Virus record (IMG/VR): IMGVR_UViG_3300010396_000006
Location: 32,001 to 96,000 of that record
Length of the DNA stretch: 64,000 nt
From: a virus
Strand: one strand, 5' to 3'
Every line of letters starts with the position of its first letter. Position 1 is the first letter of the stretch. The notes below the pieces were generated by a model. The model did no database searches. It had not been told where the DNA came from and worked only from the letters and a program-made list of their open reading frames with translations. A program made the translations under genes and the position numbers. Below, one piece after another: positions 14,251-30,684 of this stretch.

Positions 14251-15073
14251 GGATAAGCTATCGTCTGCGGAGCGAAGGAAGCTCAGAAGGCAGTTAAAGG
14301 AACAAGGCGAATCAATACCCGCTGACCTAACGCCTAAGCCCAATCGTAAAGCCCATCTGGATAAACTCCCCAATACGGAAACAAAGACACCGAAGACGGA
14401 GAGTAAACCAAGGGGCCAAGCGAAGCCAAAGCCCAAAGCGAAAGCCAAGCCCAAGCCAAGAAAGACTGAGACAACACCGGCCGGTAATGAATCAGTCGAT
14501 CAACAGAACGAGACGGAACAACCCAAGCCAGTCACGGTAGAAGCGGTCCCCGCTCCCGAGTCTGAAATCTCACCCGAATCTGTGTCGGGGGGATGGGGGG
14601 ACGGTGGCAAATATGGTCCATCTGGTCTGACGAAAACGCACGAACAGCGGATGGTTGTCAGTTCATTCAATTGGCAAAACCGCAATCGATTCCCGCTGGA
14701 AAAGGCTGTTGACGAAAACCTGAAGATCGTTGATGCGGTTGATGGCAAGTCGGATGTCTATCAGGAAATCCTGACCACGACTGTCGAGATGATGAGATCG
14801 AAGTCGGCGAGGTCAAAGGGCATTGGATTGCGGGCCGGCGTTCAACTCGTGACGGCCGTGCAAAAAGACGACCATGCCAAGTTGAGGGCTGAACTGCGTC
14901 CGATGGTATTCACTCCTCCCTCCCCTGCGCCAGAGATGCCGGCTCCCGCAGTTCCGGCCCATGTCGACCAAAGCATGAACATCGATAACAGCCATCGCGT
15001 CGTGATCTTCAACATTCCGGATAACGGACGAGATCCACAATTGAAGGCGCAATTGACTGGGGCCGCTCAATGA
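14246..15073 (+). CDS. Putative terminase small subunit
   Basis: Overlaps the TerL start; ends with VVIFNIPDNGRD, a tail typical of TerS. Confidence 0.6.
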   Translation: MEDKLSSAERRKLRRQLKEQGESIPADLTPKPNRKAHLDKLPNTETKTPKTESKPRGQAKPKPKAKAKPKPRKTETTPAGNESVDQQNETEQPKPVTVEAVPAPESEISPESVSGGWGDGGKYGPSGLTKTHEQRMVVSSFNWQNRNRFPLEKAVDENLKIVDAVDGKSDVYQEILTTTVEMMRSKSARSKGIGLRAGVQLVTAVQKDDHAKLRAELRPMVFTPPSPAPEMPAPAVPAHVDQSMNIDNSHRVVIFNIPDNGRDPQLKAQLTGAAQ

Positions 15074-16797
15074 GTTCCGTTCTCGAACAGTACGGACCAA
15101 ATGCGACGATCGTAGGACCGCAACCGGGTCCCCAGACTCAGGCCATGCAGAGCGCTGCCGATATCGTGATCATGGGTGGGGCGAACGGAGGGGGCAAATC
15201 GCATTGGATTCTGCTCGAAGCAGCGCGTCATGCCCGAGTGCCAGGATATCGAGCTGTCGTGTTCCGGCGTGAATCGACTGATATCACTGACCCCGGCGGA
15301 CTCCAAGATACGTCGATGACGATCTATCCCCAGCTTGATGGATGGTTCCGATCCAACAAACTGGATTGGATATTCGATCCGGATGCTCGCATTTCATTCC
15401 GAGGACTGCCGCACGCCAAGGATGCTATCTCGTGGGATGGAAAAGAACTGGCGTTCATCGGCTTTGATGAATTGCAATTGTTCACCGAATTTCAATTCTG
15501 GTATCTGTTCAGCCGCATGAGGTCCAGTTGCGGCGTCAACCCCGTTATTCGAGCGACATGCAATCCCGTTCATGAGGAAGATCCGACCGGCGGATGGTTG
15601 AAGATCCTGATTGGCTGGTGGCTCAACTGGGAAACCGGGTTTCCAATTCCAGAGCGATCCGGGAAAGTGCGATGGTTCGTGCGGTTGAACAATGAACTTC
15701 ACTGGGGCGATTCCCGCGAAGAACTGATTGAGCGATTCACCGATCCGGACAGTAAAGAGGAAGGCCCAACCGTCTTTCCGATGTCGATCACGTTCATCCC
15801 GTCGAAGTTACGGGACAACCCGATACTGATGAACTCGTCGCCCCAGTATCGAGCCAGCTTGATGGCGTTGCCGGACTATCTGAAGAAACAGAAATACGAA
15901 GGCAACTGGAACGCGAAACTTCAGGCCGGAACATTCTTCAAGATTGGTGTGATGGGCCGCAAAGGTCAGATCATTCCGATAGAGGAACTGCCGGCGATCG
16001 GCCTACGTTATTGCCGTGCCTGGGATCTGGCATACACGGAAGGGGCTGGAGACTGGACCGTTGGTGACTTATTGGCGACTGATGGGAAAGGAACATTTTA
16101 TCTCATTGATCAAGTTCGTGGACAATGGGAATCAAGCAATCGCAATGATCGAATGTTGGCAGTCGCCGCTGACGATGAAGAGAAATACGGTCGAGTCAAG
16201 ATCTGCGTTCCACAAGATCCATCGGCCGGAACTGAAATTTGTGAGCGACTGCTGAAAATGTTTGCCGGTTATTGGGTTGTCGGTCGAAGGCCAATCAAGA
16301 ACAAGGCAGAGCGAGCGTCGGCTTATTCGTCGTCATTCAATGGCGGAAATGTGAAGTTCGTCAAAGCGCCATGGAATTCCGGATTGCTTCAACGAATGGA
16401 TTCATTCCCGACGAAAGATATCCCAGATGATGAGATTGACGCATCTGCGGACGCCTATGAAGAACTCAGAGGCCCATCGCCTGGGGGAGCAATGGCTGAT
16501 CAAAGTGCCGTTGCCAACCCGACAGAGAAGGAAAACGTCAATCCGTTCCGCGGGTTGCTGGAAAGCTATGTTCGCGAATTCTGGTCGACCATGTCGAAGA
16601 ATGAACCAACCTGTCCCGAGTGGAAGGGATCGTTGGCAAGATTCGTTGATGATGTCGGTGAGCGCCCAAGCGACGATCACAAACTCGCAAGACGCGATCG
16701 CAACGAACTATGGGGTCCAGCAAACTTCTACTGGCAACTGGGCGATGAACCGCCTCCACCGATCAAAAGAGGCTGGGGCAAGGCAATGGCGGATTGA
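15070..16797 (+). CDS. terL: Terminase large subunit
   Basis: PQPGPQ, Walker A GGANGGGKS, Walker B IGFDE, ATCNP, nuclease RAWDLA...DDEIDA. Confidence 0.95.
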   Translation: MSSVLEQYGPNATIVGPQPGPQTQAMQSAADIVIMGGANGGGKSHWILLEAARHARVPGYRAVVFRRESTDITDPGGLQDTSMTIYPQLDGWFRSNKLDWIFDPDARISFRGLPHAKDAISWDGKELAFIGFDELQLFTEFQFWYLFSRMRSSCGVNPVIRATCNPVHEEDPTGGWLKILIGWWLNWETGFPIPERSGKVRWFVRLNNELHWGDSREELIERFTDPDSKEEGPTVFPMSITFIPSKLRDNPILMNSSPQYRASLMALPDYLKKQKYEGNWNAKLQAGTFFKIGVMGRKGQIIPIEELPAIGLRYCRAWDLAYTEGAGDWTVGDLLATDGKGTFYLIDQVRGQWESSNRNDRMLAVAADDEEKYGRVKICVPQDPSAGTEICERLLKMFAGYWVVGRRPIKNKAERASAYSSSFNGGNVKFVKAPWNSGLLQRMDSFPTKDIPDDEIDASADAYEELRGPSPGGAMADQSAVANPTEKENVNPFRGLLESYVREFWSTMSKNEPTCPEWKGSLARFVDDVGERPSDDHKLARRDRNELWGPANFYWQLGDEPPPPIKRGWGKAMAD

Positions 16798-16857
16798 CAA
16801 CGAAAATCTTTATGATTACCGTTGACGCCGTTCAGTTTCACCTCAAAGGGTTGCGGC

Positions 16858-17475
16858 ATGACAGGCGAAGAATACGACTTTGCTGATCGAGCGCTCAGTT
16901 TCATGGGCCGTTTGGATGCGTTACAAGCCGCTCAGTCGGAATGGTCTCAGCGAACATTCGGGTCAGATGAGAAGAGAGGTCCCCGCGGCCCGTTGCTTCA
17001 TCTCGCCAAGGAGGCCGACGAAGCCGCTCAAGAGGAGGTCGGATCGGCCAAGCAACTGAAGGAATTCGGAGACGTATTCCTGTTGACCCTTGAGTCATTC
17101 CGGCGCGGAAAAAGAACGATCGATGAAGTTCTGGAAGCCGCAATTGCGAAGCATGCCGAAAACAGGCTTCGCGTATGGAATGTGATCGATGCGGAAGAAC
17201 CAATCTTCCACAAGAAAGAACCGTCGTTTCGGATCAAGCCACTCGAATGGCAGGATTCTCAGTTCGACGTCAATCTTAAAAGAGCCGAAACGATATTTGG
17301 ATTCTATTGGGTGCAATACAATCCGATGTTTGAAACCGATTTCGCCTGGGGATTTCATTTCCACGATTTCACCGATGAAGAACAGCACTGTTGCATGTCG
17401 TTTGATCAGGGTAAGCAACTCGCCTGGGAGAACTGGCAGGAACGAATCAAAAGCGCATTGATCGAGGCCGAGTGA
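16858..17475 (+). CDS. DUF550-like dATP/dGTP pyrophosphohydrolase (MazG-like) with C-terminal extension
   Basis: WSQRTFG...GPLLHLAKEADEA..EFGDVFLL...K.AEN..RVW. Confidence 0.75.
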   Translation: MTGEEYDFADRALSFMGRLDALQAAQSEWSQRTFGSDEKRGPRGPLLHLAKEADEAAQEEVGSAKQLKEFGDVFLLTLESFRRGKRTIDEVLEAAIAKHAENRLRVWNVIDAEEPIFHKKEPSFRIKPLEWQDSQFDVNLKRAETIFGFYWVQYNPMFETDFAWGFHFHDFTDEEQHCCMSFDQGKQLAWENWQERIKSALIEAE

Positions 17476-17830: not shown

Positions 17831-18385
17831 ATGACGAATGGGATTCATCGCTTGTTGACTGAACAATATCTTGAACTCAAAAGCCGTGTCGCGGCTGAAT
17901 ACAGTTCTGAAATCGAGTGGGCGGCAAATCTCAAGCTGTGCGCCGACTCGCTTCGATTCGCCTATGAAACGATCTGGGTCATTCTGAACGCCGGGATGAA
18001 GATGCAGGTTGCTCGACAGATCGAATCAAAGATCCTGCCGACACTGGCCAAAGGCGAATCGGCATCAATGGTATTCGGTCACAAACTGAAATGCCGGGCA
18101 ATTGATGATGTCTGGAAGAATCGAGTCAAACTGTTCAGCGAGTACCAATCGGCAAATGACAAGCTGGAATACCTCGAAACACTGCCGCACATTGGGCCGA
18201 TCACCAAATTCCATCTGGCTCGAAATCTTGGTTTAGACTTCTGCAAACCAGACCGTCACTTAGTTCGTATTGCAGGAGATGAGACGGCGTCAGTAATGTG
18301 TCAGCGGCTGGCGGACGCGACTGGCGATCGAATTGGCGTTGTTGATTGTGTGATCTGGCGAGCCGCAAATCTGGGGTGGGTGTGA
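17831..18385 (+). CDS. HhH-GPD / Ogg-like DNA glycosylase-fold protein
   Basis: HhH motif LETLPHIGPITKFHLARNLG followed by KPDRHLVR. Confidence 0.65.
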   Translation: MTNGIHRLLTEQYLELKSRVAAEYSSEIEWAANLKLCADSLRFAYETIWVILNAGMKMQVARQIESKILPTLAKGESASMVFGHKLKCRAIDDVWKNRVKLFSEYQSANDKLEYLETLPHIGPITKFHLARNLGLDFCKPDRHLVRIAGDETASVMCQRLADATGDRIGVVDCVIWRAANLGWV

Positions 18386-19427: not shown

Positions 19428-19560
19428 TTGCAAAAATCAGTAAGATTTCACAAGATGCCAATTAACCGATTGTTGGGCAATCGGACTTGATAGACGCGGC
19501 TTGTCTGTGTCGGCCTGTCGTAATACTGCCCAACGGTATTGCGACAGGCTTTTTCTTTTG
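19428..19560 (+). ncRNA. Candidate sRNA/attenuator with terminator
   Basis: TTGCAA-17-CAAGAT; hairpin 19466-19484; 14-bp terminator stem 19513-19549 followed by T-run. Confidence 0.5.
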
Positions 19561-19576: not shown

Positions 19577-21325
19577 ATGACAGTCTATGGCAGTGTGTGC
19601 GTGAGTGTTCCAACCGGTCCATCGTCAACGAAAAGCTTCTCGTTTGGGGTCCCAGGCGAGATCGTGGATCGGATGTGTGCAAGACCGGATATTGAATGGG
19701 AACCCCAATTCAAGGCGATGGTCAACAAGGCAATCAACGGGCCACCGATCGAATCAGACAATAAGGAAGAACTGAAACCGCCATTCGTTTCCGGCCAGAA
19801 AGTGATCTGCGTTCTGAACAGCAAAAATCTCGGCGGATTGACTGTCGGTGAGGAATATACGATCTGGAGATGCTTGAAGGACTCGATGATGTCGAGCGGC
19901 TTCAAATGCGAACTCAAGGAAAAGATGGTGGGCCAGATGTATTGTGCATCGCTGTTCAAAGCGAAGTCGGAGTCTGGAAAACTGTCAAACGATGAACCAC
20001 CATTCCAAGTCGGCGATCATGTTGAGATGCTCAAAGAGAGAGATCAAAAACCAACCGGGGTTGCCAGTCTCGTAGTTACGGGCGTTCGTTCACCGGAGCA
20101 GATGGCGGGGCATTGGACGCTTCCAGGCGTCAAGGCAAACGAAGGTGAGTGGTTTGTGTCGTGCGATCCAAAATGCACTGCATGGGGACCGGCAGGATAT
20201 TTTCGCAAGGCGTTCTTACCGCCATTCGCAGTCGGTGAGGAAGTGTTGGCGAATTACAACTTTTGGTCTGACTTGAATACGCTGGCTTCTGCAATCCAGA
20301 TCCACGAGAACAAGCCATATCGAATTAGAGCAATCCAAAAGGAAGTCGACTGCAATTCCGGTTGGAAAGTCTGGGTGGAAGGACAGCAAGGCGGTTGCGA
20401 TGCGTCGAAGTTCAGGAAGATGGATTCAATCGGAGAACAAATACGAAAGTCGCTCGAAGGAACATATCGCAATGCCCAGGAACTTATTGATTTTGAAGTC
20501 GGCCATGAAGCGGCAATTGCGAGAACGAACTATTTCGCATATCACGGACCGTTCGAAAGCGGCGATTTGCGATGGGGCCAAGTCAATATTGGCGAAAGAC
20601 GTCGATGGTTGAACGCCGCGAAAGCTGTCGAAGCAATCGTGAAAGATTGTGACGAATTTCGTATCGCCAATTCGATCGAAGAACTGATCCAGCAGAACAG
20701 CGGACCGGAAGATCTGAACCTCGAAGCTGGCGTGAACAAACTGGAACTGGCGTTGCAGTGGGTGAAAGATCGGATTGTCCACGAAAAGGCGAAGATCGCA
20801 CCGCAACCGTTCCAAGTCGGAGAAGTAGTTCAGGCTGTTGAAAACGTGATGAGCGGAAACGGAAAAGGAACTGTCGCCGCTGGTTGTCATATCAAAGTAT
20901 CGGCCTGCGAACGACGCAACCCTGATATCTGTCCTTCAGGCTGGATCGTGTATGCCGAAGATTGTGACCACTGGGGCGGATTCGATTCAGCGAAGTTCAA
21001 GAAAGATCCGATTGTTAATCCGGTCTCGACAGATCAATGGAAATTGCCCAATTCAGGGACTGTCAAATTCAGTCCCATCATTAATCCAAAACCAGGACAG
21101 ATCCCCATCTACAGGGGTGATGGTCAAGTTGAATGGATTGATCTTCCGAAAGATCAAACAAGATCGATAGCGTGGGAATACAGAGTAACTCCATGTCTGG
21201 ATGTCATTGATGAAGGATTTGATTCTGGCGTTGTCGACAGATTGAATAACAGCGGTGAAATCGGCTGGGAATTTGTAGCGTTCACTCCTATGACAGGACG
21301 AGCCGTATTCAAGCGCAGGAAGTGA
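19577..21325 (+). CDS. Multi-module hypothetical protein with four PF.xG.xV (SH3-like) repeats
   Basis: PPFVSGQKV, PPFQVGDHV, PPFAVGEEV, QPFQVGEVV, each ending ..F(K/R)(A/K). Confidence 0.7.
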   Translation: MTVYGSVCVSVPTGPSSTKSFSFGVPGEIVDRMCARPDIEWEPQFKAMVNKAINGPPIESDNKEELKPPFVSGQKVICVLNSKNLGGLTVGEEYTIWRCLKDSMMSSGFKCELKEKMVGQMYCASLFKAKSESGKLSNDEPPFQVGDHVEMLKERDQKPTGVASLVVTGVRSPEQMAGHWTLPGVKANEGEWFVSCDPKCTAWGPAGYFRKAFLPPFAVGEEVLANYNFWSDLNTLASAIQIHENKPYRIRAIQKEVDCNSGWKVWVEGQQGGCDASKFRKMDSIGEQIRKSLEGTYRNAQELIDFEVGHEAAIARTNYFAYHGPFESGDLRWGQVNIGERRRWLNAAKAVEAIVKDCDEFRIANSIEELIQQNSGPEDLNLEAGVNKLELALQWVKDRIVHEKAKIAPQPFQVGEVVQAVENVMSGNGKGTVAAGCHIKVSACERRNPDICPSGWIVYAEDCDHWGGFDSAKFKKDPIVNPVSTDQWKLPNSGTVKFSPIINPKPGQIPIYRGDGQVEWIDLPKDQTRSIAWEYRVTPCLDVIDEGFDSGVVDRLNNSGEIGWEFVAFTPMTGRAVFKRRK

Positions 21326-21560: not shown

Positions 21561-21839
21561 ATGAGTTCCGAAGAACGCTACGCCATGCATGAGGATATGG
21601 CGGATAAAATCACCGATGCATGCGCCGAATTGTTCCCCGAAGATGGAATGTGTGCTGATGTTTTATTCGCGTTGCTGACGGCTGCGTCATGGGGAGCGTT
21701 ATTTCTCATTGATATGCCGCCGGATCAAAAACAAAGGTTCGTTAATAACGGCGTCGTGCCGGAACTCGTTGCCACCGCTTCATGTGCGATACGAGAACGA
21801 TTAGAAAAGATGCGTGTTGCTGACAATAGCCGAAACTAA
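21561..21839 (+). CDS. Hypothetical helical protein
   Basis: ORF lies within the operon. Confidence 0.55.
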   Translation: MSSEERYAMHEDMADKITDACAELFPEDGMCADVLFALLTAASWGALFLIDMPPDQKQRFVNNGVVPELVATASCAIRERLEKMRVADNSRN

Positions 21840-21854
21840 ATGAGGAGTGAATTA

Positions 21855-22574
21855 ATGGGAACGCAAGTTTGGAATGTGGCATCGCTGCTCGTCATGACGT
21901 CTATGTTCATTGGCTTGGCGACAATGCTCTATCGAGCATTCCGTCATCAACCGGACGTGAAGACTCCAGAAGATCCATACGGATTCGGTTGCAAGCCAAC
22001 GCCGATTCAATTGAGAGTCCTGAAATCAACGGCTGACATCGTGATCTATTGCGGGCCTGCTGGATCTGGAAAGAGCATGCTGATGCGAATGGCCGCAATG
22101 ATGCGAGCCAGGTTGTATCCGTCACAGCCTATCCTCACGTTCTGGTTTCAGCAGCGAGAAACGTGGGAAATGTTGGACAAGCACATTCCGTCAATTCGCG
22201 TGATCGGCCTCAAAGGCATCAATGAGGCTTGTGATCAATTTGCGGGAGTTGCGGCCCACACGATTTGCATCGACGGGATTGACTGGATCAGGGAAGAGTC
22301 GTTCTGGTTTCTGCTGTCGCGGTTGCGATCGAACGATTCGAACGTCAATCCGCAAATGTTCTGCTCAATGGATCGTCTTACAGATCCAAAGCCGCTATGG
22401 CTCGCAAAGCTGGTGAAGCATTGGGAGGAACCAGCAGACGGAATCGGCATTCGTGGAAAGCGGAATGGAATCCGTCACTTCCAAAGGATTGACGGCAATT
22501 TGCATCTTGTGGATATCACAAAGCATGATGCGTTGCTCAGCAAGCCGATCTCGATCGAATACATCCAAGGATGA
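21855..22574 (+). CDS. Membrane-anchored degenerate terminase ATPase-domain paralog
   Basis: Colinear similarity to the TerL N-terminal half; Walker A GPAGSGKS; N-terminal TM helix; GAGGAG RBS. Confidence 0.75.
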   Translation: MGTQVWNVASLLVMTSMFIGLATMLYRAFRHQPDVKTPEDPYGFGCKPTPIQLRVLKSTADIVIYCGPAGSGKSMLMRMAAMMRARLYPSQPILTFWFQQRETWEMLDKHIPSIRVIGLKGINEACDQFAGVAAHTICIDGIDWIREESFWFLLSRLRSNDSNVNPQMFCSMDRLTDPKPLWLAKLVKHWEEPADGIGIRGKRNGIRHFQRIDGNLHLVDITKHDALLSKPISIEYIQG

Positions 22575-22624
22575 CTAATCAGGGCACGATGCCATCATCA
22601 AACCAATAACAGGAGAATCACAAG

Positions 22625-22981
22625 ATGGGATTAGCGAGACGATGGATGCGCAAAGTCGAACACAAATTTGCCGATCAATTTCAGGAAGGGGAATTCTTCG
22701 ACAAACGACAGAAACACGCCAAGCCGCAAGTATTCAACACTCGGATCTACTTCCAAGATCCAGAATCGGAATGCGTTCAAGTGTCTCGGATCATGGGAAC
22801 CACGTCTGTTGCTCATCGCCTCAAAGGCCACATGGACCGCAACCCGACATGTCGAATCTTGCAGGTGAAGAACACGCCTCATAAACGATGGACAAAGCCA
22901 GAACATCCTCTGGTCGCTCGCCGCAAGATGGCAAAGGCCAGAGCTGAAAGGCTCAAGCGTCAAATCCCGGTCAAGAGATAA
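22625..22981 (+). CDS. Basic hypothetical protein
   Basis: AGGAG RBS. Confidence 0.6.
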   Translation: MGLARRWMRKVEHKFADQFQEGEFFDKRQKHAKPQVFNTRIYFQDPESECVQVSRIMGTTSVAHRLKGHMDRNPTCRILQVKNTPHKRWTKPEHPLVARRKMAKARAERLKRQIPVKR

Positions 22982-23059
22982 TCGTTACCGGTCCGTGAAT
23001 GGGTAATTGTGCCGCCAAGTTTTAAATACTCCTACGAATGTTCAAGAAAGGCTGATTTG

Positions 23060-23536
23060 ATGCCGGAGAATTTGACGATCGAGCAGAAGGCCACTAACAA
23101 CGACACATTCCGCCACATTGAACGGGTGAGAAATCTGATCAATACTTGCGTGACGGATCTACTTCGACGGGGAGAAAGACACGATCAAACGAAACTGGAA
23201 TCACCAGAGGTTGAACTGTTCACAGAATTCACGCCAAAGTTGGCTGAGTGTACTTACGGAAGCGCCGAGTACGAGGGATTCCGGAAAGCAATGGGGCCGG
23301 CGCTCGCTCACCACTATGCGAACAATTCGCACCATCCAGAGCATTGGAAGAATGGCATTGACGACATGAGCCTGCTGGACATTGTCGAAATGTTGTGTGA
23401 CTGGAAAGCAGCGAGTGAACGCCATAACGATGGAAACATCCGGAAGTCGATCACGATCAATGCCGACCGATTCAAGATGTCGCCGCAGTTGGTGAAGATT
23501 CTGGAAAACACAGCCGACTTGCTGTTCTCAGATTGA
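23060..23536 (+). CDS. DUF5662-like HD-fold protein
   Basis: HIERV..HDQTK..HHYANNSHHPEHW..EMLCDW.AA. Confidence 0.75.
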   Translation: MPENLTIEQKATNNDTFRHIERVRNLINTCVTDLLRRGERHDQTKLESPEVELFTEFTPKLAECTYGSAEYEGFRKAMGPALAHHYANNSHHPEHWKNGIDDMSLLDIVEMLCDWKAASERHNDGNIRKSITINADRFKMSPQLVKILENTADLLFSD

Positions 23537-23925: not shown

Positions 23926-23967
23926 AGGCTGAGTTGACTATTTTGTTGACTCAGCCTCTTTCGTTTT
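23926..23967 (+). terminator. Intrinsic terminator after groES
   Basis: AGGCTGAGTTGAC/GTTGACTCAGCCT stem followed by T-rich tail. Confidence 0.65.
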
Positions 23968-23976
23968 CAGGCAAGG

Positions 23977-26900
23977 ATGTCACAAATCATGAGCCGACGC
24001 CGCAACCGCAACCGTCGCGTTGAGAACTATCGCAAGAATTCGGATCGGGTTGTTGAGCATCCAAATGTTCCGGCCCCCGAACTGAACGACTCCCAAATCA
24101 AGTCGATGGCGTCTCAGATGCGGGCGGCTCTGGCCGGAAGCTTCGGCGGCGCTCAAGTCACGAATCACCGCGAAGAAGCTCTCCACTATGAGGGCAATAG
24201 CTACGTCAATATCGCGGCCATCTGCGCCCAAATGATGATGGTGACGATAACAGCCTATGTCGACGGATCGAACCAGCTTCGACAGCAGTCGGTCCGGAAG
24301 TCGCTGCGAGGTCTCGTCGGAAGCCGATGGAAGTCTCAATATGGGGTTGATGAGGCATCGTCGAAGCAACTCGAATCAGACCATTACCTGATGCGATTGC
24401 TGTCGAAGCCAAATCCGCACGAACCGGGCAGCATGTTCCGGTATCGGCAAACTCTTCAACTCAGGCTCACTGGAGGTGCGTTCCTGTGGAACGTCCCAAA
24501 TATCAACGGCCGGACGTGCGAACGGTACGTCATCCCCACCACATGCCTGACGCCGGTCTATCCAGACAACACGTTGCCGTACGGTGGTTATCGCGTTCAA
24601 CCAAACTGTATGCGATGGATTCCACTGGTTGACGATGGATTCGTGATCGGGACCCCGGCCCTGATGCGAGTGTTGGGCATGATCATTGATGCCCGAGAAA
24701 TCCAAAAGGTTGGCTATCCACATCCGATCTGGCTGGATGACTTCCAAAGCCCGATGTCTGCTGGCGCTCAGTGGGTCGATGCCGAACGATCGATCAACAT
24801 CGCACGGGCAATGGGCATCAGCCGCGGCATGAATCCGAGCGGTTTCCTTGAACTATCCAAAGAATACATGGGCATCGAACAAGATGCGCTGAACATCACT
24901 CAGCGGAAACTCGATCGACAATATGGCGGCGTCAACAACACGGGCAAGGTCATTGCCGTGGCTCCCGATACCAAGTTCACCGGATACGATCGAAGCCCGA
25001 AAGACATGGAATACCATGAAGGGTACTTGGATCACCGGGAAGCGAATCAGTCTCTACACGGCGTTCATCCGATCATCACTGGCGGACAGCCCCCCGGCGC
25101 ATACGCGGCCTACTACGCCGCCATGCGAGCATTCGACAACAACACGTTGACTCCCATTTGTGACATGCTGGCGGAATCAGACACGTTCCACATTGCACCG
25201 CAATTCGGCGAAGGGATCACGATCGAGATCGAGCCAAAGCCGATCAACGATGAGGACGAACTGAATTCACGTCTCCAGGTCGATGGTCAATTGGGGATCA
25301 TCAAGGTCAATGAAGCGCGAGCATTGCGAGGAATGCCGCCATTGGACGGAGCGCAAGGAGAAAAGCTGTGCGGACCGACTTCAAAGGATAAGGTTGGTCA
25401 GGATCAAGACAGCGACAATCCATCCAAGCCGAAGAAACCAAAGCAGTCTGGCGATGCGCCGTCAACTCCCGAGGTCCAAGAAGCCGAACAAGCGGACGTC
25501 CCCAAGGCTCCCGAAAATCCCATCGTCGGCAAGAGTGAATCAAAATCACTTCAAGCCGCAATGGAAGGGATGAAGGAGGCGGACGAAGACTACATTCAAG
25601 AAATAGTTGCCAAGGCGTTGGATTCGCGACTGAAGGCGATGCAACCTGCCGAGAAGCCAAAGCGGAAGTATTCCTCGACGCAGTTTGATCTGCCTGCCGG
25701 TCTCGCCGAAAAAGTGCAGGAGATGGCAGCCCTGATCAATCCGGCCGATCTCGCATCGGATGGAATCGAAGAAAATCCGCACGTGACTTGCTTGTACGGG
25801 CTGACCGAAGAATCACCCAATGATGTCAAGAAAGCCGTCAAGGGAATCTCGGCCGGTCCGATCGTTCTTGAATCGCTGTCGTTGTTCCCGGCTGGTGACA
25901 AGCTTGCTCAGCATGGCGGCGAACAGTTCGACGTTTTGAAGATCAGCATCGGCGGAAAGTTCATTCACGAGATTCACAATGCGATCGCAGAATCGTGCGA
26001 GTATGAAACCGATTATGCCGACTATTCTCCTCACTGTACGATCGCCTACTTGAAGCCGGGAAAAGGCCGCAAGTATGTGACGATGAACAATCCAGTGGAT
26101 GGGATGACGTTCATTCCTGACAAGCTGATCTTCAGTAGCAAAAACCGAACGGTCTCGGCAATTCGATTGAGCGTTCTGAAATCAGTCGAAGAACAACCAT
26201 CAGAAGCTCAGATTACTGCCGGCAATTACAAAAAAGATCACATCACAATTCAGGGGCTAAGGATCTCAATCGAAAATCCGAAAGGATCTGTTCGAAGTGG
26301 TCGTGACGATGATGGCAATGAGTGGTCAACGAAAATGCGGAATGATTACGGCTACATCAAAGGAACGAAATCAGATTCCGATGGTGATCACATTGATGTC
26401 TTCGTTGGGCCAAATCCAAGTTCAGAATTGGTGTTCGTAATTGATCAGGTCAATCCGCAAAGCGGGCAACATGACGAACACAAATGCATGTTGGGATTCG
26501 ATTCGAAAGATCAAGCGAAGTCTGCCTATCTCGAAAACTATTCCAAGGGTTGGAAAGGCTTCGGCGGCATTACTCCAATGCACATGGATCAATTCAAGGA
26601 ATGGCTAGACAGCGGAGATTCATCAAAAGGAATCGCGAGAAAATCTCTCACGGCAGCATTCTCCGAATCAGAAATGAAGGGCCACAATCCAATCAGCGAC
26701 ATCCAAGCCATTGGAAAGAGACTCGCTGAATCCGATTGTGGAATGCCCGGATACGGTCAGATCTTTATCAAGGAAAACGGATCTGGCCAAGCATGGTATG
26801 TCGGTGGCGACGGAGATGAACGAGGATTCGATAAGACTGTCATTCAAGAACTGAAGAAAGTCACGGGGATTGACGAAGTTCGTTATGAGTCTGAATCGTT

Positions 26901-29900
26901 CCCGCCCGATGGGGAAGGATGGATTCAGGTCTATCCGAAAGTGTCGAAGCGTAAATCTCTCGGCATGTCCGAAGGGATCGGGTCAGATGGAGGATTCGCC
27001 GTCGCTTCCGAAGACGAACGATGCCCAAAATGTCCCAAATGCGGATCACGGGAAACGCATCATGCTAGAACTGATGGCACAGGGAACGCGATCTGTAGCA
27101 ATTGCAAATCAATTTTCACTGATCCTGATTATGGAAAACAGAAATCAGTTTCGTTTCCATCGTCAGAAGTCGTACCGGGCAACAACGGCCATCAATTCCC
27201 CAAGAACACATTGATTCTTGGTGGGGATCAAGTTCTGATGCCACCAGAGTCAGAACTCAAATCCAAATGGATCACGATTCATCCTGGGGGAGACAAAGAC
27301 GCAACTGGCATTCACATCCTGATTGACGAAGACGGCGAAATCAAAGGCGGTCCGGCCGAACTGCGAGACAAAGGCATCCGCAAGATGTCTGACTTCGGGA
27401 AAGAAGACCTGAAGCCAGTCAAACCAAAAGACAATCACGAGAAGGCCGCATTCAACGCCAGCAAGCGAGCCGATCAAGCATCCGCCGATGCTAAAGAGTC
27501 GGGCGACCTGTTCGACCATATTGCGGCTAAAGAAGCCCACATGCACGCCGCAGCCCATCACAGCAAAGGCGGCAATGAAGATCAGGCGTCATATCACAGA
27601 AAGGCGGCTCAACAGCACGGTTCAGCCGCGACACCAACGGCTCCAGCGTCAAACGGACAACTGAGCGACGAAAAGATCATCCAGGCAATGAAGCCATCCG
27701 TTGATCGCAGCGGCATGGTTGAGGCCGAAGAACTGCGATCGATGCCAGAATTCGCTGGGATGTCGAAAGAGAAATTCGACCAACGAATGATGGACATGGC
27801 CAAAGTTGATCAGCCGGGCGGACCGAAGGTCTCGTTGCACCGATACGACCGAGCCGAATCGCTGTCAGCGGACGATAAAAAAAAGATGATCTTCGATCCG
27901 GATGCGCCGGCACGATTCGAAGATGGACAAAAGGGAGCGTATTACAATGCGGTCTCCATCCGCAAATCGTTGTCAGAAATGAAATCGCATTGGATTACGA
28001 TCCATCCTCATGGCGATGAGCATGATGGAACGCACGTTTTGATCGATGGAGAAGGGAATATCGAAGGCGGTCCCGAAGGACTGGCGAAACGTGGGATTCA
28101 CAAGCTGTCCGACTTTGGGAAAGGCGGCGAATCAGCAGACAAACCACACGAAACCCGTGAAGAGTGGGCGAAGAGACATTCCGATGCCGCCGATCATTGG
28201 TTACATGGAGTGAACAATGATCTGGCAGCCGTGCATCAAGAACACGGCGACTTGATCACAAAAAAGCACATGACGGACAGCTTTCGAAATCACGTCAATA
28301 CCGGAAGAATGACCCCAGATCAATATGAGGATCATGTTTCTAAGGGAACCATTCTCGGTGGACACGATTACGAACGCGCTCAGCATGTCGAGCAGAAAAT
28401 CCATGAGATCAAAAATCGTCCGCTAACTGTCCCGGAGCCAGATGGAAAGCATCCATACGTTGAACCGCCCGCCAAGCCGCCGGAAGAAAAGCCAGAAATC
28501 CGACCAGACATCGACGCTCCGATCAGCAAGAAAGACACGCCTCGCGAAACGGCGGCAAAGCAAAAGAAGATTGACGATGATTATGCGTTTGCTCGCAATT
28601 CATCCATCCCGAATGTCGGCGAAGATGTTGCCGATTCGGCTCGTCACAAGCGAAATGCTTGGCGTGGATTGGAAGATGCGGAATCCAATGGAACCGCCGA
28701 ATCAATGGTGACTCGTGATAATCTGCTCAAGGCCGAACCGCACAACTTGATGTCTCATGCCGGAAAACATCCACTGACATCACTGGCCATGCATTACGCG
28801 ATGAGATCGTTCCCAGCGAAACCATCCAGCAATCGCGAAGTGGCCAATGCCAGCGATCGGAAGGACTATCACGAAGCGTATCAGAGCATCAAAGCAAAAG
28901 CCGAGCATCTGGCGGAAACAGAATCCGATCCACGGGCAGCCGCAGAGAAGCTACGAGAACACGTCGGCAATCATCTGAAGGGATTGAGGGAGCGGAAGAT
29001 TCCCGGACCCACAATTCCCGTGGCCGATCGATACAACAAGACCGCGAACAATTTGGTTGGAATGCACAAGGCGTTACGATTCGCCAGCTACGGCCGACCA
29101 TCGGCAAATAGCGTTCATGGCAAGATGGAAGAGTTCTCAAAGGCGATGGCCGGGAAATATGGACTTCCAGAAAAGTATGAACCTGAAGCGGCCAAGCAAT
29201 TCGCCTCCCATATTGAGACTCACGCCAAGGACATTATTGACGGGAAATCGCTTCCACAGTCATTTGGCATTAAGGGAGAAAAGAAAAACGAATTTAATCC
29301 TGCCGATCGATACGTCAAGCATGCTGAACGAGCCGGGGGCAAGGATGTCAGTCACCAAACCGCAACGGGAGTCTCGGCGGCAAACTCCGTCGTAAACGAC
29401 TTCGGGATGCGTGGCGTCCAATGGGGTAACAGCGTCACTGACGACGAACGCCATCATCACGCTGCCAAGGTTGTCGAAGCGTTGACCGATCTGGCCGATA
29501 CTCTCGGCATCAAGCCGGCTGATCTCAGTCTCGGCGGAAAGCTGGCCTTGGCCATTGGCGCTCGCGGTAAGGGAACTGCCTCGGCTCATTACGAACCGCA
29601 TACCCAGGCCATCAACCTGACGCGGGCCAGCGGAGTCGGTACTCTCGCCCATGAGTGGGGACACGCCTTTGATCATTCACTGGAGAATTTCGCGAATCGT
29701 GCGACGAGTGCGGTCTATCACAGCGAAAACTATCGATCCAGTCCGGCAATGCAAAAGCTGACATCCGATTTCCGATCATCGGGATTCACGAATCGAATTC
29801 ATAGTGAGGTTCGTGATATGGTGCGTCAGGGCCTGATGTCGAAAAAGAAAGCGGAATACTGGCTATCAACCAGAGAACAATTCGCCCGTTGCTTCGAGAG

Positions 29901-30684
29901 TTATGTTCAACACAAGCTGGCTGACACGAATCAGAAGAATACGTATCTTGCTGGTCTGATTTCGGACGGCGGCTTGTGGCCGACCAAGGAAGAAACGGCC
30001 AAGATGGCCCCCGCTTTTGACAGTCTGTTCGCTGAATTCCGCAAACAAAAGTATGGAAGCGAAAATCGGATTGATCAGTCTCGATCGGAAATCAAATCGG
30101 CAGTCTTGGATTTGGTTGGTCAATCCGTCTTTAAATCGTCGCGATGGATCACAATCCATCCGCACGGTGAAGACGCGAAAGGCGTCCATATCCAGATCAA
30201 TGACGACGGCGAGATCCTGTCAGGTCCCGCACATCTTCGCGACAAGGGAATTACCCACATGGGGGATTTCGCGAAGCGGGGAAGCAATCAAGCGGCCGTG
30301 GACGAACTGAAGCCTCACGCTCTCGAATTCCTGACCGAGCAACACAAGCTGAGAGAACATCACAAAGCCGAAGCTCGCAAACTGACTGGCAAGAATGCCG
30401 GCAATCTGGCGATGTCGGAAAACAGCTATCACGATCATTCGGATGCTCATCGATTCGAGACCGCCGCTCGCACATTCGCCCGAGAGAATCCCGATGCTGG
30501 ATTGAATCCAGATGCTCACGACACGCCGGCCAAAGTCTGGGAGCTAATCCGGGAGGGCAAGAAGAAAGCCCCGCTGATCAATTCGAAGGAAGTCCACGAG
30601 ACAGCCAGAGCCTGGGTGAAGAATCACCGAACGAAGCGTGCGCCGGTAGGCACATACGAACACGATTCCGATTGGAACTTCTGA
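23977..30684 (+). CDS. Portal protein fused to polyvalent effector domains (2H phosphoesterase, InPase, Zn ribbon, 3x WITIHP repeat, LPD1 metallopeptidase)
   Basis: HK97-type portal motifs (LLSKPNP, L.LTGGAF, NEAR...MPPL); HVT/HCT; AGNYKK..ENPKGS.R.G..DGDHIDVF..DEHKCMLGF; GVQWGN..GARG..AHYEP..LAHEWGHAFD..FAR.FE.YV. Confidence 0.9.
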   Translation: MSQIMSRRRNRNRRVENYRKNSDRVVEHPNVPAPELNDSQIKSMASQMRAALAGSFGGAQVTNHREEALHYEGNSYVNIAAICAQMMMVTITAYVDGSNQLRQQSVRKSLRGLVGSRWKSQYGVDEASSKQLESDHYLMRLLSKPNPHEPGSMFRYRQTLQLRLTGGAFLWNVPNINGRTCERYVIPTTCLTPVYPDNTLPYGGYRVQPNCMRWIPLVDDGFVIGTPALMRVLGMIIDAREIQKVGYPHPIWLDDFQSPMSAGAQWVDAERSINIARAMGISRGMNPSGFLELSKEYMGIEQDALNITQRKLDRQYGGVNNTGKVIAVAPDTKFTGYDRSPKDMEYHEGYLDHREANQSLHGVHPIITGGQPPGAYAAYYAAMRAFDNNTLTPICDMLAESDTFHIAPQFGEGITIEIEPKPINDEDELNSRLQVDGQLGIIKVNEARALRGMPPLDGAQGEKLCGPTSKDKVGQDQDSDNPSKPKKPKQSGDAPSTPEVQEAEQADVPKAPENPIVGKSESKSLQAAMEGMKEADEDYIQEIVAKALDSRLKAMQPAEKPKRKYSSTQFDLPAGLAEKVQEMAALINPADLASDGIEENPHVTCLYGLTEESPNDVKKAVKGISAGPIVLESLSLFPAGDKLAQHGGEQFDVLKISIGGKFIHEIHNAIAESCEYETDYADYSPHCTIAYLKPGKGRKYVTMNNPVDGMTFIPDKLIFSSKNRTVSAIRLSVLKSVEEQPSEAQITAGNYKKDHITIQGLRISIENPKGSVRSGRDDDGNEWSTKMRNDYGYIKGTKSDSDGDHIDVFVGPNPSSELVFVIDQVNPQSGQHDEHKCMLGFDSKDQAKSAYLENYSKGWKGFGGITPMHMDQFKEWLDSGDSSKGIARKSLTAAFSESEMKGHNPISDIQAIGKRLAESDCGMPGYGQIFIKENGSGQAWYVGGDGDERGFDKTVIQELKKVTGIDEVRYESESFPPDGEGWIQVYPKVSKRKSLGMSEGIGSDGGFAVASEDERCPKCPKCGSRETHHARTDGTGNAICSNCKSIFTDPDYGKQKSVSFPSSEVVPGNNGHQFPKNTLILGGDQVLMPPESELKSKWITIHPGGDKDATGIHILIDEDGEIKGGPAELRDKGIRKMSDFGKEDLKPVKPKDNHEKAAFNASKRADQASADAKESGDLFDHIAAKEAHMHAAAHHSKGGNEDQASYHRKAAQQHGSAATPTAPASNGQLSDEKIIQAMKPSVDRSGMVEAEELRSMPEFAGMSKEKFDQRMMDMAKVDQPGGPKVSLHRYDRAESLSADDKKKMIFDPDAPARFEDGQKGAYYNAVSIRKSLSEMKSHWITIHPHGDEHDGTHVLIDGEGNIEGGPEGLAKRGIHKLSDFGKGGESADKPHETREEWAKRHSDAADHWLHGVNNDLAAVHQEHGDLITKKHMTDSFRNHVNTGRMTPDQYEDHVSKGTILGGHDYERAQHVEQKIHEIKNRPLTVPEPDGKHPYVEPPAKPPEEKPEIRPDIDAPISKKDTPRETAAKQKKIDDDYAFARNSSIPNVGEDVADSARHKRNAWRGLEDAESNGTAESMVTRDNLLKAEPHNLMSHAGKHPLTSLAMHYAMRSFPAKPSSNREVANASDRKDYHEAYQSIKAKAEHLAETESDPRAAAEKLREHVGNHLKGLRERKIPGPTIPVADRYNKTANNLVGMHKALRFASYGRPSANSVHGKMEEFSKAMAGKYGLPEKYEPEAAKQFASHIETHAKDIIDGKSLPQSFGIKGEKKNEFNPADRYVKHAERAGGKDVSHQTATGVSAANSVVNDFGMRGVQWGNSVTDDERHHHAAKVVEALTDLADTLGIKPADLSLGGKLALAIGARGKGTASAHYEPHTQAINLTRASGVGTLAHEWGHAFDHSLENFANRATSAVYHSENYRSSPAMQKLTSDFRSSGFTNRIHSEVRDMVRQGLMSKKKAEYWLSTREQFARCFESYVQHKLADTNQKNTYLAGLISDGGLWPTKEETAKMAPAFDSLFAEFRKQKYGSENRIDQSRSEIKSAVLDLVGQSVFKSSRWITIHPHGEDAKGVHIQINDDGEILSGPAHLRDKGITHMGDFAKRGSNQAAVDELKPHALEFLTEQHKLREHHKAEARKLTGKNAGNLAMSENSYHDHSDAHRFETAARTFARENPDAGLNPDAHDTPAKVWELIREGKKKAPLINSKEVHETARAWVKNHRTKRAPVGTYEHDSDWNF

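What the first reader, a model, noticed from the sequence alone, without database searches (positions are those of the whole stretch)
21855..22574. Membrane-anchored, Walker-B-mutated copy of the terminase ATPase domain
Seen: colinear with TerL (SAADIVIMGGANGGGKS vs STADIVIYCGPAGSGKS; FWYLFSRMRS vs FWFLLSRLRS; VRWFVRLNNELH vs IRHFQRIDGNLH; PMSITFI vs PISIEYI). It stops before the nuclease domain, Walker B DE has become DG, and a TM helix is added; the ORF is intact with a strong RBS. Known: Avs STAND NTPases detect terminase. Inference: a decoy for terminase-sensing immunity, or a packaging inhibitor of competing phages.
Basis: partly seen in the sequence, partly recalled or inferred. Interest (0 to 1): 0.78.

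Follow-up and report, generated by a model that had tools for sequence, protein, structure and literature searches.

The report
Membrane-anchored dead terminase ATPase copy
An uncultured 106-kb soil phage carries, besides its normal DNA-packaging motor gene, a second intact gene that copies only the motor's ATP-binding core, has lost the residues needed to burn ATP and has gained a membrane anchor. Such truncated terminase copies are a known but unexplained oddity of phages, and the anchor is the new twist.

Summary
ORF 21855-22574 (+) encodes a 239-aa protein with an N-terminal transmembrane helix and a cytoplasmic domain homologous to the TerL ATPase core: 28% identity to the phage's own TerL (E 5e-14), TerL family phrog_979 (E 1e-15), profile-profile 99.7%.

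It keeps the Q motif and the P-loop. It lacks the Walker B Glu (D-G), a 30-residue segment holding an Arg invariant in TerLs, the C-motif Asn-Pro, the lid and the nuclease. No nuclease remnant lies downstream, and codon use is native.

Among about 15 billion proteins there is one true homologue (45% identical). It also has the membrane helix, the D-G and an intact P-loop, so the gene is maintained, not decaying.

The general kind is already known but unexplained. "Truncated large terminases" occur in Rak2-like phages (CBB_274) and phiM12. CHA_P1 gp165 and T4 vs.8 are further examples. This scan has met such copies on other DNA before. This one arose separately, and only this pair has a membrane anchor.

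The Avs-decoy idea is untested. Published assays show that isolated TerL ATPase domains and vs.8 trigger Avs2 and Upx rather than block them.

My best reading is a hydrolysis-dead, probably ATP-binding TerL mimic that holds a TerL-binding partner at the membrane. The partner is unknown.

The parts
21843..21847 (+). Ribosome-binding site AGGAG, 7 nt before the ATG at 21855
   Evidence: Read directly from the sequence. The database form of the protein (P0002, 239 aa) starts at 21855.
21855..22574 (+). CDS of the membrane-anchored TerL-ATPase-like protein. It is 239 aa from 21855; the longest ORF from 21840 gives 244 aa (P0001), whose numbering is used here.
21867..21932 (+). Transmembrane helix, P0001 residues 10-31. 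It has an uncharged N flank and an Arg/Lys-rich C flank, so the predicted topology is N-out/C-in with the ATPase-like domain in the cytoplasm.
   Evidence: KD19 maximum is 1.87 here and 2.55 in the homologue P0003. The AF2 model has a helix at 8-34. Only these two of 54 TerL-family proteins have such a segment.
22008..22010 (+). Gln57, the retained adenine-binding Q-motif residue
   Evidence: Nearly invariant across the 47-sequence alignment
22053..22076 (+). Walker A P-loop GPAGSGKS (residues 72-79), intact
   Evidence: Also intact (GxxxxGKT) in P0003.
22119..22139 (+). Site of the roughly 30-residue deletion relative to TerLs (around residues 94-100). It removes the F-R-R...P-G-G segment with the invariant Arg (R66 of the own TerL).
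22260..22277 (+). Walker B strand T-I-C-I-D-G (residues 141-146). The Asp is kept and the catalytic Glu is replaced by Gly.
   Evidence: The same D-G is found in P0003.
22359..22376 (+). Degenerate C (coupling) motif, residues 174-179. The TerL Asn-Pro is replaced by Asp-Arg.
   Evidence: N165 is invariant in 40 TerLs.
22446..22562 (+). Block best conserved between the two family members (residues 203-241, about 65-75% identical against 44% overall). It is a candidate partner-binding surface.
15070..16797 (+). The phage's full-length TerL (575 aa, ATPase plus nuclease domains)
   Evidence: Terminase_6N and Terminase_6C; phrog_979 E 1.5e-121
19512..19550 (+). Strong terminator-like hairpin (17-bp stem plus T run) at the upstream edge of the transcription unit that holds the gene
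23926..23957 (+). Terminator-like hairpin (13-bp stem) at the downstream edge of the unit, just before the portal-fusion gene

Best explanation
The gene encodes a bitopic inner-membrane protein. A single N-terminal helix anchors a stripped-down copy of the terminase large-subunit ATPase core on the cytoplasmic face.

The copy keeps what is needed to hold a nucleotide (Q motif, P-loop Lys-Ser, Walker B Asp). It has lost what is needed to hydrolyse one and to couple hydrolysis to DNA movement: the Walker B Glu, the invariant Arg, the C-motif Asn, the lid and the nuclease. It therefore cannot be a packaging motor.

The mechanism I commit to is mimicry with sequestration. Probably locked in an ATP-bound-like state, the protein offers the surface of a TerL ATPase domain and holds at the membrane whatever normally recognises that surface.

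Shown: homology, fold, motif losses, membrane helix, intactness, and conservation in one distant homologue.

Inferred: topology, nucleotide binding without hydrolysis, action by binding, and the identity of the partner. The partner could be a part of the phage's own packaging or prohead machinery, a host terminase sensor, or a rival phage's component (see the rival explanations).
For: - Homology and fold.
- Motif state.
- No nuclease remnant.
- Native GC and codon use, so not a recent import.
- The P0001/P0003 pair shares the membrane helix, the intact P-loop, the D-G and the truncation point at 44-45% identity. The two form a clade (SH-aLRT 99) on a long stem, apart from all TerLs.
- The membrane helix is unique to this pair among 54 TerL-family proteins. 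It is absent from T4 vs.8 and CBB_274.
- Precedent that stand-alone TerL-ATPase-like proteins are bound by proteins that recognise TerL: vs.8 with EcAvs2 (PMC13601566).
Against:
- Nucleotide binding is inferred from motifs only.
- An Asp three residues after the Walker B Asp in P0001 (I-D-G-I-D) sits where some TerLs have the Glu of D-Q-L-E, so residual catalysis is not excluded. P0003 has Asn there.
- One of three database records of this gene (P0056) carries a 1-nt frameshift.
- With only two family members, conservation arguments are thin.
Confidence: 0.55

Rival explanations
1. Version A of the partner: the phage's own packaging or assembly apparatus. The dead ATPase domain docks to TerL, to the small terminase or to the portal. 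It either tethers prohead initiation or packaging to the membrane, or keeps TerL or the portal idle until proheads are ready.
For: - The gene lies in the late morphogenesis region, on the same strand, between terL (15070-16797) and the portal-fusion gene (23977-30684).
- It sits in a terminator-bounded unit that ends with a phage GroES.
- Truncated TerL paralogues in other phages sit right next to terL: CBB_274 (PMC5259590) and CHA_P1 gp165, two genes upstream of terL. That points to a packaging-linked role for the class.
Against: - It is not adjacent to terL, and it is only 28% identical to the own TerL, with no special affinity to it in the tree.
- It lacks the lid subdomain.
- Its immediate neighbours are orphan small genes.
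- No complex prediction was possible.
Confidence: 0.25
2. Version B: a decoy or sink for host sensors that recognise the TerL ATPase domain (Avs1-3, Upx). It binds them at the membrane so that they do not fire productively.
For: - EcAvs2 and Upx recognise the ATPase domain alone, independent of catalysis.
- EcAvs2 contacts the TerL-bound ATP, so a P-loop-intact, hydrolysis-dead domain could be a tight ligand.
- vs.8, Ksap1 and Ksap2 occupy the same pocket, and the authors speculate an anti-defence origin (PMC13601566).
- A membrane anchor is a plausible way to sequester a cytosolic sensor.
Against: - In every published case the ATPase domain or mimic activates the sensor. None of the anti-Avs proteins described in the paper read on anti-defence proteins derives from TerL.
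- The host and its defence repertoire are unknown.
- There is no PADLOC or other family match.
- The deletion and motif changes could equally abolish recognition.
- The gene seems co-transcribed with late genes rather than early.
Confidence: 0.18
3. Version C: a weapon against co-infecting phages or satellites. A membrane-bound dominant-negative TerL fragment poisons or titrates a foreign packaging component.
For: - Membrane localisation is typical of superinfection-exclusion proteins (established knowledge).
- Interference with packaging by binding terminase subunits is known for satellites (my own knowledge, not checked here).
Against: - Small terminases and TerLs of rival phages are too diverse for one mimic.
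- The location among late genes fits exclusion poorly.
Confidence: 0.08
4. It is still an enzyme: a membrane-bound ATPase that uses a non-canonical catalytic carboxylate.
For: - The P-loop, the Q motif and the Walker B Asp are intact.
- P0001 has Asp148 at the position of the Glu in the D-Q-L-E variant seen in several full-length TerLs.
Against: - P0003 has Asn at that position.
- The invariant Arg and the C-motif Asn are both missing.
Confidence: 0.07
5. A decaying remnant of a terL duplication with no function.
For: One database record of the gene has a frameshift (P0056). The branch is very long.
Against: - Two intact ORFs at 45% identity share a gained membrane helix and the same truncation point.
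- The truncation is clean, with no nuclease debris.
- There is a good RBS and native codon use.
Confidence: 0.03

Closest known systems
[quoted passage not shown]
   Same: A stand-alone gene of about 235 aa that copies only the TerL ATPase core, co-resident with a full terL. It is catalytically degenerate (Walker A Lys lost, Walker B D-S) and its function is unknown.
   Different: CBB_274 abuts terL, has no membrane helix (KD19 maximum 1.49) and has lost the P-loop Lys. The window's protein is 5 kb from terL in another unit, is membrane-anchored and keeps the P-loop. It has a separate origin (T4-type versus this TerL clade).
Pseudomonas phage CHA_P1 gp165 (UniProt V5JWI7; PAK_P3-like Nankokuvirus), an unannotated truncated TerL paralogue
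   Same: It is 272 aa and comes from a TerL clade close to this phage's TerL. It is 28% identical to its own TerL (E 4e-22), was the fourth-best viral structural match to the model, and has lost the C-motif Asn-Pro.
   Different: It keeps the Arg-Arg segment and the Walker B D-E, has no membrane helix, and lies two genes upstream of terL. It is only 25% identical to the window's protein (E 6e-5).
Phage T4 vs.8 (PMC13601566)
   Same: A stand-alone 219-aa TerL-ATPase-like protein encoded away from the terminase genes. Its function is unknown, and it is the one member of this kind with any experimental read-out.
   Different: It has intact Walker A and B and is soluble. It shows no detectable sequence similarity to the window's protein. 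It triggers EcAvs2 toxicity rather than blocking it.
TerL ATPase domain (Pfam Terminase_6N; solved examples P74-26 4zni, D6E 5oe8, HK97 6z6d, Sf6 4idh, T4 gp17 2o0h)
   Same: Same fold and colinear motifs.
   Different: The catalytic Glu, the invariant Arg, the C-motif Asn, the lid and the nuclease are absent, and a membrane anchor is added.

Membership tests
Functional large terminase (TerL, Terminase_6N + Terminase_6C) | ATPase core homologous to the TerL N-domain | tested here: met
   BLASTP E 5e-14; phrog_979 E 1.3e-15; hhalign 99.7%; VIA Z 11.6 to P74-26 TerL
Functional large terminase (TerL, Terminase_6N + Terminase_6C) | Walker A GxxxxGK[ST] and the Q motif | tested here: met
   GPAGSGKS and Gln57
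Functional large terminase (TerL, Terminase_6N + Terminase_6C) | Catalytic Glu of Walker B (D-E, or the D-Q-L-E variant) | tested here: not met
   P0001 has I-D-G-I-D and P0003 has I-D-G-L-N
Functional large terminase (TerL, Terminase_6N + Terminase_6C) | Invariant Arg after strand 2 (R66 of the own TerL) and the C-motif Asn (N165) | tested here: not met
   The Arg lies in a 30-residue deletion, and the Asn-Pro is replaced
Functional large terminase (TerL, Terminase_6N + Terminase_6C) | C-terminal RNase H-like nuclease domain | tested here: not met
   The protein ends at the last ATPase strand. No Terminase_6C match and no remnant by tblastn.
Functional large terminase (TerL, Terminase_6N + Terminase_6C) | Reaches the Pfam Terminase_6N gathering score | tested here: not met
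   Only sub-threshold AAA_22 and NACHT P-loop matches were listed
Truncated large-terminase paralogues (informal class: CBB_274, phiM12 gp17.2, CHA_P1 gp165, T4 vs.8) | Separate intact ORF covering only the TerL ATPase core, in a genome that also has a full-length terL | tested here: met
Truncated large-terminase paralogues (informal class: CBB_274, phiM12 gp17.2, CHA_P1 gp165, T4 vs.8) | Common descent with a described member | tested here: not met
   No similarity to vs.8. Similarity to gp165 (E 6e-5) is no closer than to ordinary TerLs. The pair is on its own branch. So this is the same kind, arisen separately.
Truncated large-terminase paralogues (informal class: CBB_274, phiM12 gp17.2, CHA_P1 gp165, T4 vs.8) | Adjacency to terL (true of most members, not of vs.8) | tested here: not met
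   5 kb downstream of terL, beyond the terminator at 19512-19550
Anti-Avs / terminase-sensor decoy | Binds the sensor domain of Avs1-3 or Upx without activating it, and rescues TerL-triggered toxicity | not testable with these tools
This needs the co-expression assay of PMC13601566.
Known anti-phage defence or exclusion proteins (PADLOC models) | Match to a defence-system protein model | tested here: inconclusive
   No PADLOC family at E 0.01 or below. Absence from a library does not exclude the role.

The most novel reading that the evidence does not exclude
A natural 'ATP-trap' terminase mimic tethered to the membrane, which captures terminase-sensing immune receptors (Avs1-3 or Upx type) and keeps them from assembling productively. 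This would be the first decoy derived from the very protein the sensors detect, and a functional explanation for at least one lineage of the enigmatic truncated terminase paralogues.
Probability: 0.13. Interest if true: 0.85.

Novelty: new variant of a known kind. Interest (0 to 1): 0.45.

Why it matters
Truncated, often catalytically dead copies of the terminase ATPase recur in unrelated phage lineages: Rak2-like, phiM12, PAK_P3-like, P1-like according to this scan's earlier notes, and T4 vs.8. Nobody knows what they do.

The 2026 finding that vs.8 is recognised by Avs2 links the class to immunity for the first time.

This member adds a clear mechanistic constraint. It is nailed to the membrane, it keeps the nucleotide-holding residues, and it has lost the hydrolysis residues. 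That is what one expects of a protein that works by binding and sequestration.

It is small, is predicted to fold confidently, and could be tested directly in the published E. coli co-expression assays. That makes the question 'trigger, decoy or packaging regulator?' experimentally approachable even though the phage is uncultured.

Tried and rejected
The DNA and neighbours of P0003, P0006 and P0007 could not be fetched, so there is no dN/dS and no synteny.
No co-fold with TerL, the putative small terminase, the portal or Avs could be made.
- tblastn of the protein against 50,697 phage records gave no match.
- Scans of IMG/VR with P0001, P0003, P0006 and the 582-aa neighbour found nothing related.
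- The metagenome scan returned only ordinary TerLs.
- The genome scan found nothing.
- 71 phage loci that share the neighbouring DUF5662 gene hold no homologue of P0001, P0058, P0059 or P0060.
- A homologue search with the upstream 92-aa gene found only itself.
- P0006 (215 aa, D-Q-L-E, same deletion, no anchor) and P0007 (314 aa, D-N) looked like family members. They do not group with the pair in the tree, and P0007 is much closer to ordinary TerLs. I treat them as separate truncated TerL-like proteins or fragments.
- Foldseek against PDB ranked generic RecA/KaiC P-loops first. The exhaustive aligner put TerL ATPase domains on top, but tied with helicases.
- Sequencing runs: no RNA holder is listed. 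The only full holder is probably the source sample.
- A second soil run (X2) holds a relative whose flanking genes lay at 85-95% DNA identity. Nothing was laid across 21614-23274 at 80% or more, and its contigs are tiny and shallow. This is evidence neither of absence nor of hypervariability.
- Host identification through the phage GroES was not diagnostic: 50% identity or less, to several phyla.
- No PurZ was found, so the MazZ-like gene does not indicate a 2-aminoadenine genome.
- Literature searches for a TerL-derived Avs decoy or a terminase 'pseudo-ATPase' found none.

Full report
**Setting.** The window is bases 32001-96000 of a 105,647-bp IMG/VR virus record. The record has direct terminal repeats and is rated 100% complete. 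Nearly all genes are on the + strand. The sequence was found in soil metagenome runs.

The phage is distant from anything cultured. Its TerL (window 15070-16797, 575 aa; Terminase_6N plus Terminase_6C, phrog_979 E 1.5e-121) is at most 38-39% identical to known phage terminases.

**The observation.** ORF 21840-22574 (244 aa, P0001) most plausibly starts at the ATG at 21855. That start is preceded by AGGAG with 7-nt spacing, and the database form of the protein begins there.

The similarity is not chance:
- BLASTP against the own TerL gives 28% identity over 205 residues, E 5e-14.
- The PHROG TerL family phrog_979 matches at E 1.3e-15.
- A profile of the two-member family aligns to a profile of 40 TerLs with probability 99.7%, E 1.8e-26. 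The alignment is colinear from the Q motif to the last strand of the ATPase core.

An AlphaFold2 model built on a 47-sequence alignment has mean pLDDT 82.9. It shows a long N-terminal helix (residues 8-34), a low-confidence linker, and an alpha/beta P-loop domain.
- An exhaustive structural comparison puts the TerL ATPase domains of P74-26 (Z 11.6) and D6E (Z 11.5) first. HK97, Sf6, T4 gp17 and phi29 gp16 follow at Z 10-10.6, statistically tied with SF1/SF2 helicases and PhoH.
- Against predicted viral structures the top matches are terminases (E 1e-12).
- The ESM Atlas structural neighbours are all TerLs (TM 0.66-0.70 on the query).
- Foldseek on PDB alone gave only generic RecA/KaiC matches.

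**What is kept and what is lost.** Kept:
- the adenine-binding Gln57;
- the P-loop GPAGSGKS;
- the Walker B Asp145;
- the F-W..S-R-x-R-S helix.

Lost:
- The Walker B Glu. P0001 reads I-D-G where the own TerL has F-D-E-L.
- About 30 residues after the Walker A helix. This segment includes an Arg that is invariant in 40 TerLs (R66 of the own TerL).
- The Asn-Pro of the C motif (N165 is invariant).
- Everything after the last core strand, that is the lid, the linker and the nuclease.

tblastn with the whole TerL finds no trace of a nuclease domain anywhere else in the genome, so the truncation is clean.

One caveat for the 'DE to DG' argument: seven full-length TerLs of this clade read D-Q-L-E. 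P0001 has an Asp at the position of that Glu, but its homologue has Asn there.

GC content and codon usage are typical of the phage.

**The membrane helix.** Residues 10-31 are hydrophobic (Kyte-Doolittle 19-residue maximum 1.87). The N flank is uncharged and the following stretch is Arg/Lys-rich. By the positive-inside rule this gives N-out/C-in, with the P-loop domain in the cytoplasm (topology is inferred).

Any in-frame start that would skip the helix would also remove the P-loop.

**Relatives.** A word-indexed search of 5.8 billion cluster representatives found only the protein itself. An exhaustive HMMER search of 1.84 billion representatives found one true homologue, P0003 (270 aa, 45% identity, E 1.7e-39). 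Beyond it came only ordinary TerLs from E 1e-8.

P0003 comes from a 1.6-kb Logan contig. It has a stronger N-terminal hydrophobic segment (2.55), an intact GxxxxGKT, the same deletion, the same D-G and nearly the same end point.

The two proteins form a pair (SH-aLRT 99) on a stem of 3.6 substitutions per site. They sit outside all TerLs, with no special link to the phage's own TerL. So whether the gene began as a duplicate of the resident terL or was imported is unresolved.

Identity peaks at 65-75% in residues 203-241. This may mark a binding surface.

Two intact ORFs at this divergence, sharing a gained feature, argue for purifying selection.

Two other short proteins do not group with the pair and are probably separate cases or fragments:
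- P0006: 215 aa, same deletion, D-Q-L-E, no anchor.
- P0007: 314 aa, D-N.

Among the 54 TerL-family proteins gathered, only P0003 besides P0001 has an N-terminal hydrophobic segment.

**Context.** The gene sits in a unit bounded by two strong terminator-like hairpins, at 19512-19550 and 23926-23957. The unit contains, in order:
- an orphan 582-aa gene;
- a 67-aa zinc-ribbon-like gene;
- an orphan 92-aa gene with its own hydrophobic segment;
- the TerL-like gene;
- an orphan basic 118-aa gene;
- a DUF5662 gene;
- a phage GroES.

terL lies 5 kb upstream in the preceding unit. The portal follows immediately, as the N-terminus of a 2,235-aa polyvalent protein with Phage_portal, InPase and LPD1 domains. 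The gene therefore lies in the late, morphogenesis part of the genome but among orphan accessory genes.

None of the 71 IMG/VR phage loci that share the DUF5662 gene holds a relative of it or of its small neighbours.

**What is known.** The general phenomenon is not new.
[quoted passage not shown] It calls this unusual (PMC5259590). I read CBB_274: 235 aa, P-loop Lys lost, Walker B D-S, no membrane helix.
- The viral fold search led me to CHA_P1 gp165, an unannotated 272-aa TerL paralogue two genes upstream of terL in a PAK_P3-like Pseudomonas phage. It has intact Walker A and B but a lost C motif.
- Evans et al. 2026 (PMC13601566) describe T4 vs.8 as a stand-alone TerL-ATPase-like protein with intact Walker motifs that is toxic with EcAvs2.
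- It also shows that EcAvs2 reads the TerL-bound ATP through a bridging ATP. The authors leave the function of vs.8 open and suggest an anti-defence origin.

vs.8 has no detectable similarity to the window's protein. gp165 is no closer to it than ordinary TerLs are.

Earlier notes of this scan list several more truncated or dead TerL copies on other DNA. They gave me the lead to the CBB paper, which I checked.

**Interpretation.** A motor function is excluded by the missing nuclease, lid, Arg, Glu and C motif. Retention of the nucleotide-holding residues in both members, together with loss of the hydrolysis residues, is the signature of a pseudo-ATPase that binds but does not turn over. It resembles a laboratory Walker B 'trap' mutant.

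Tethered to the membrane by a short linker, such a domain most simply works by mimicry and sequestration. It would hold at the membrane something that recognises the TerL ATPase surface. I put 0.55 on this general mechanism.

The partner is open. My estimates are:
- the phage's own TerL, small terminase or portal, as a regulator or membrane tether (about 0.25). This is favoured by the genomic position and by the terL-adjacency of most other truncated copies.
It is favoured by the vs.8-Avs2 precedent and by the logic of the anchor, but every tested mimic so far is a trigger, not a blocker.
- a rival phage's packaging component (about 0.08).

Residual catalysis (0.07) and neutral decay (0.03) are unlikely.

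**Verdict.**
- Observation: confirmed.
- Novelty: a new, separately evolved variant of a known but unexplained kind. It is distinguished by its membrane anchor, by the combination of an intact P-loop with lost hydrolysis residues, and by its location away from terL.
- Limits: only two family members are known and there is no functional evidence. That keeps the score moderate.

Noticed in passing
window 23977-30684: The portal protein is the N-terminal domain of a 2,235-aa polyvalent protein. It carries Phage_portal at residues 129-452, inorganic pyrophosphatase InPase at 743-877, LPD1 at 1955-2024, and a weak 2'-5' RNA ligase-like stretch. Another agent of this scan has already reported on it.
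   Followed up: partly
window 16822-17475 and 17831-18385: Just after terL lies a dATP/dGTP pyrophosphohydrolase (PF04447, MazZ-like). It is followed by a protein matching the PADLOC model 'OGG' at E 8.5e-37. No PurZ (PF00709) is in the genome, so this is probably not a 2-aminoadenine genome. It may be a different nucleotide-pool or DNA-modification module.
   Followed up: partly
window 15070-16797 (TerL residues 515-555): The TerL has a roughly 100-residue C-terminal extension beyond the nuclease domain, with a weak HNH-endonuclease-like match (phrog_3377, E 1.4e-4).
   Followed up: no
window 21561-21839: The orphan 92-aa gene ends one base before ORF position 21840. It has its own hydrophobic segment (residues 34-52, KD19 1.90), so it may be a second membrane protein working with the TerL-like protein. 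A related phage in another soil run has a diverged homologue starting at the same place.
   Followed up: partly
window 22240-22260 (P0056): One of three database records of this gene is a 157-aa form that changes frame after residue 135. This is consistent with a 1-nt loss in a G run. It could be an assembly error or a natural knockout variant.
   Followed up: no
window 19740-19996: In a second soil metagenome (run X2) a related phage has 15 other letters in place of 255 nt of the 582-aa gene. Its DNA is otherwise 85-95% identical in the 582-aa gene, the 67-aa gene, the DUF5662 gene, GroES and the portal start.
   Followed up: no
L095:36858-37676 (Pseudomonas phage CHA_P1 gp165): A cultured PAK_P3-like phage has an unannotated 272-aa truncated TerL paralogue two genes upstream of terL. 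Walker A and B are intact and the C motif is lost. It could serve as a tractable model for this class of proteins.
   Followed up: partly
alignment A4 (P0005, P0008, P0021, P0023, P0037, P0040, P0055): Seven full-length TerLs of this clade have Walker B D-Q-L-E instead of D-E-L-x. This suggests a shifted catalytic Glu in a subgroup of otherwise normal terminases.
   Followed up: no
P0010: One TerL homologue carries a large insertion directly after the P-loop Lys, apparently an intein in the Walker A motif.
   Followed up: no
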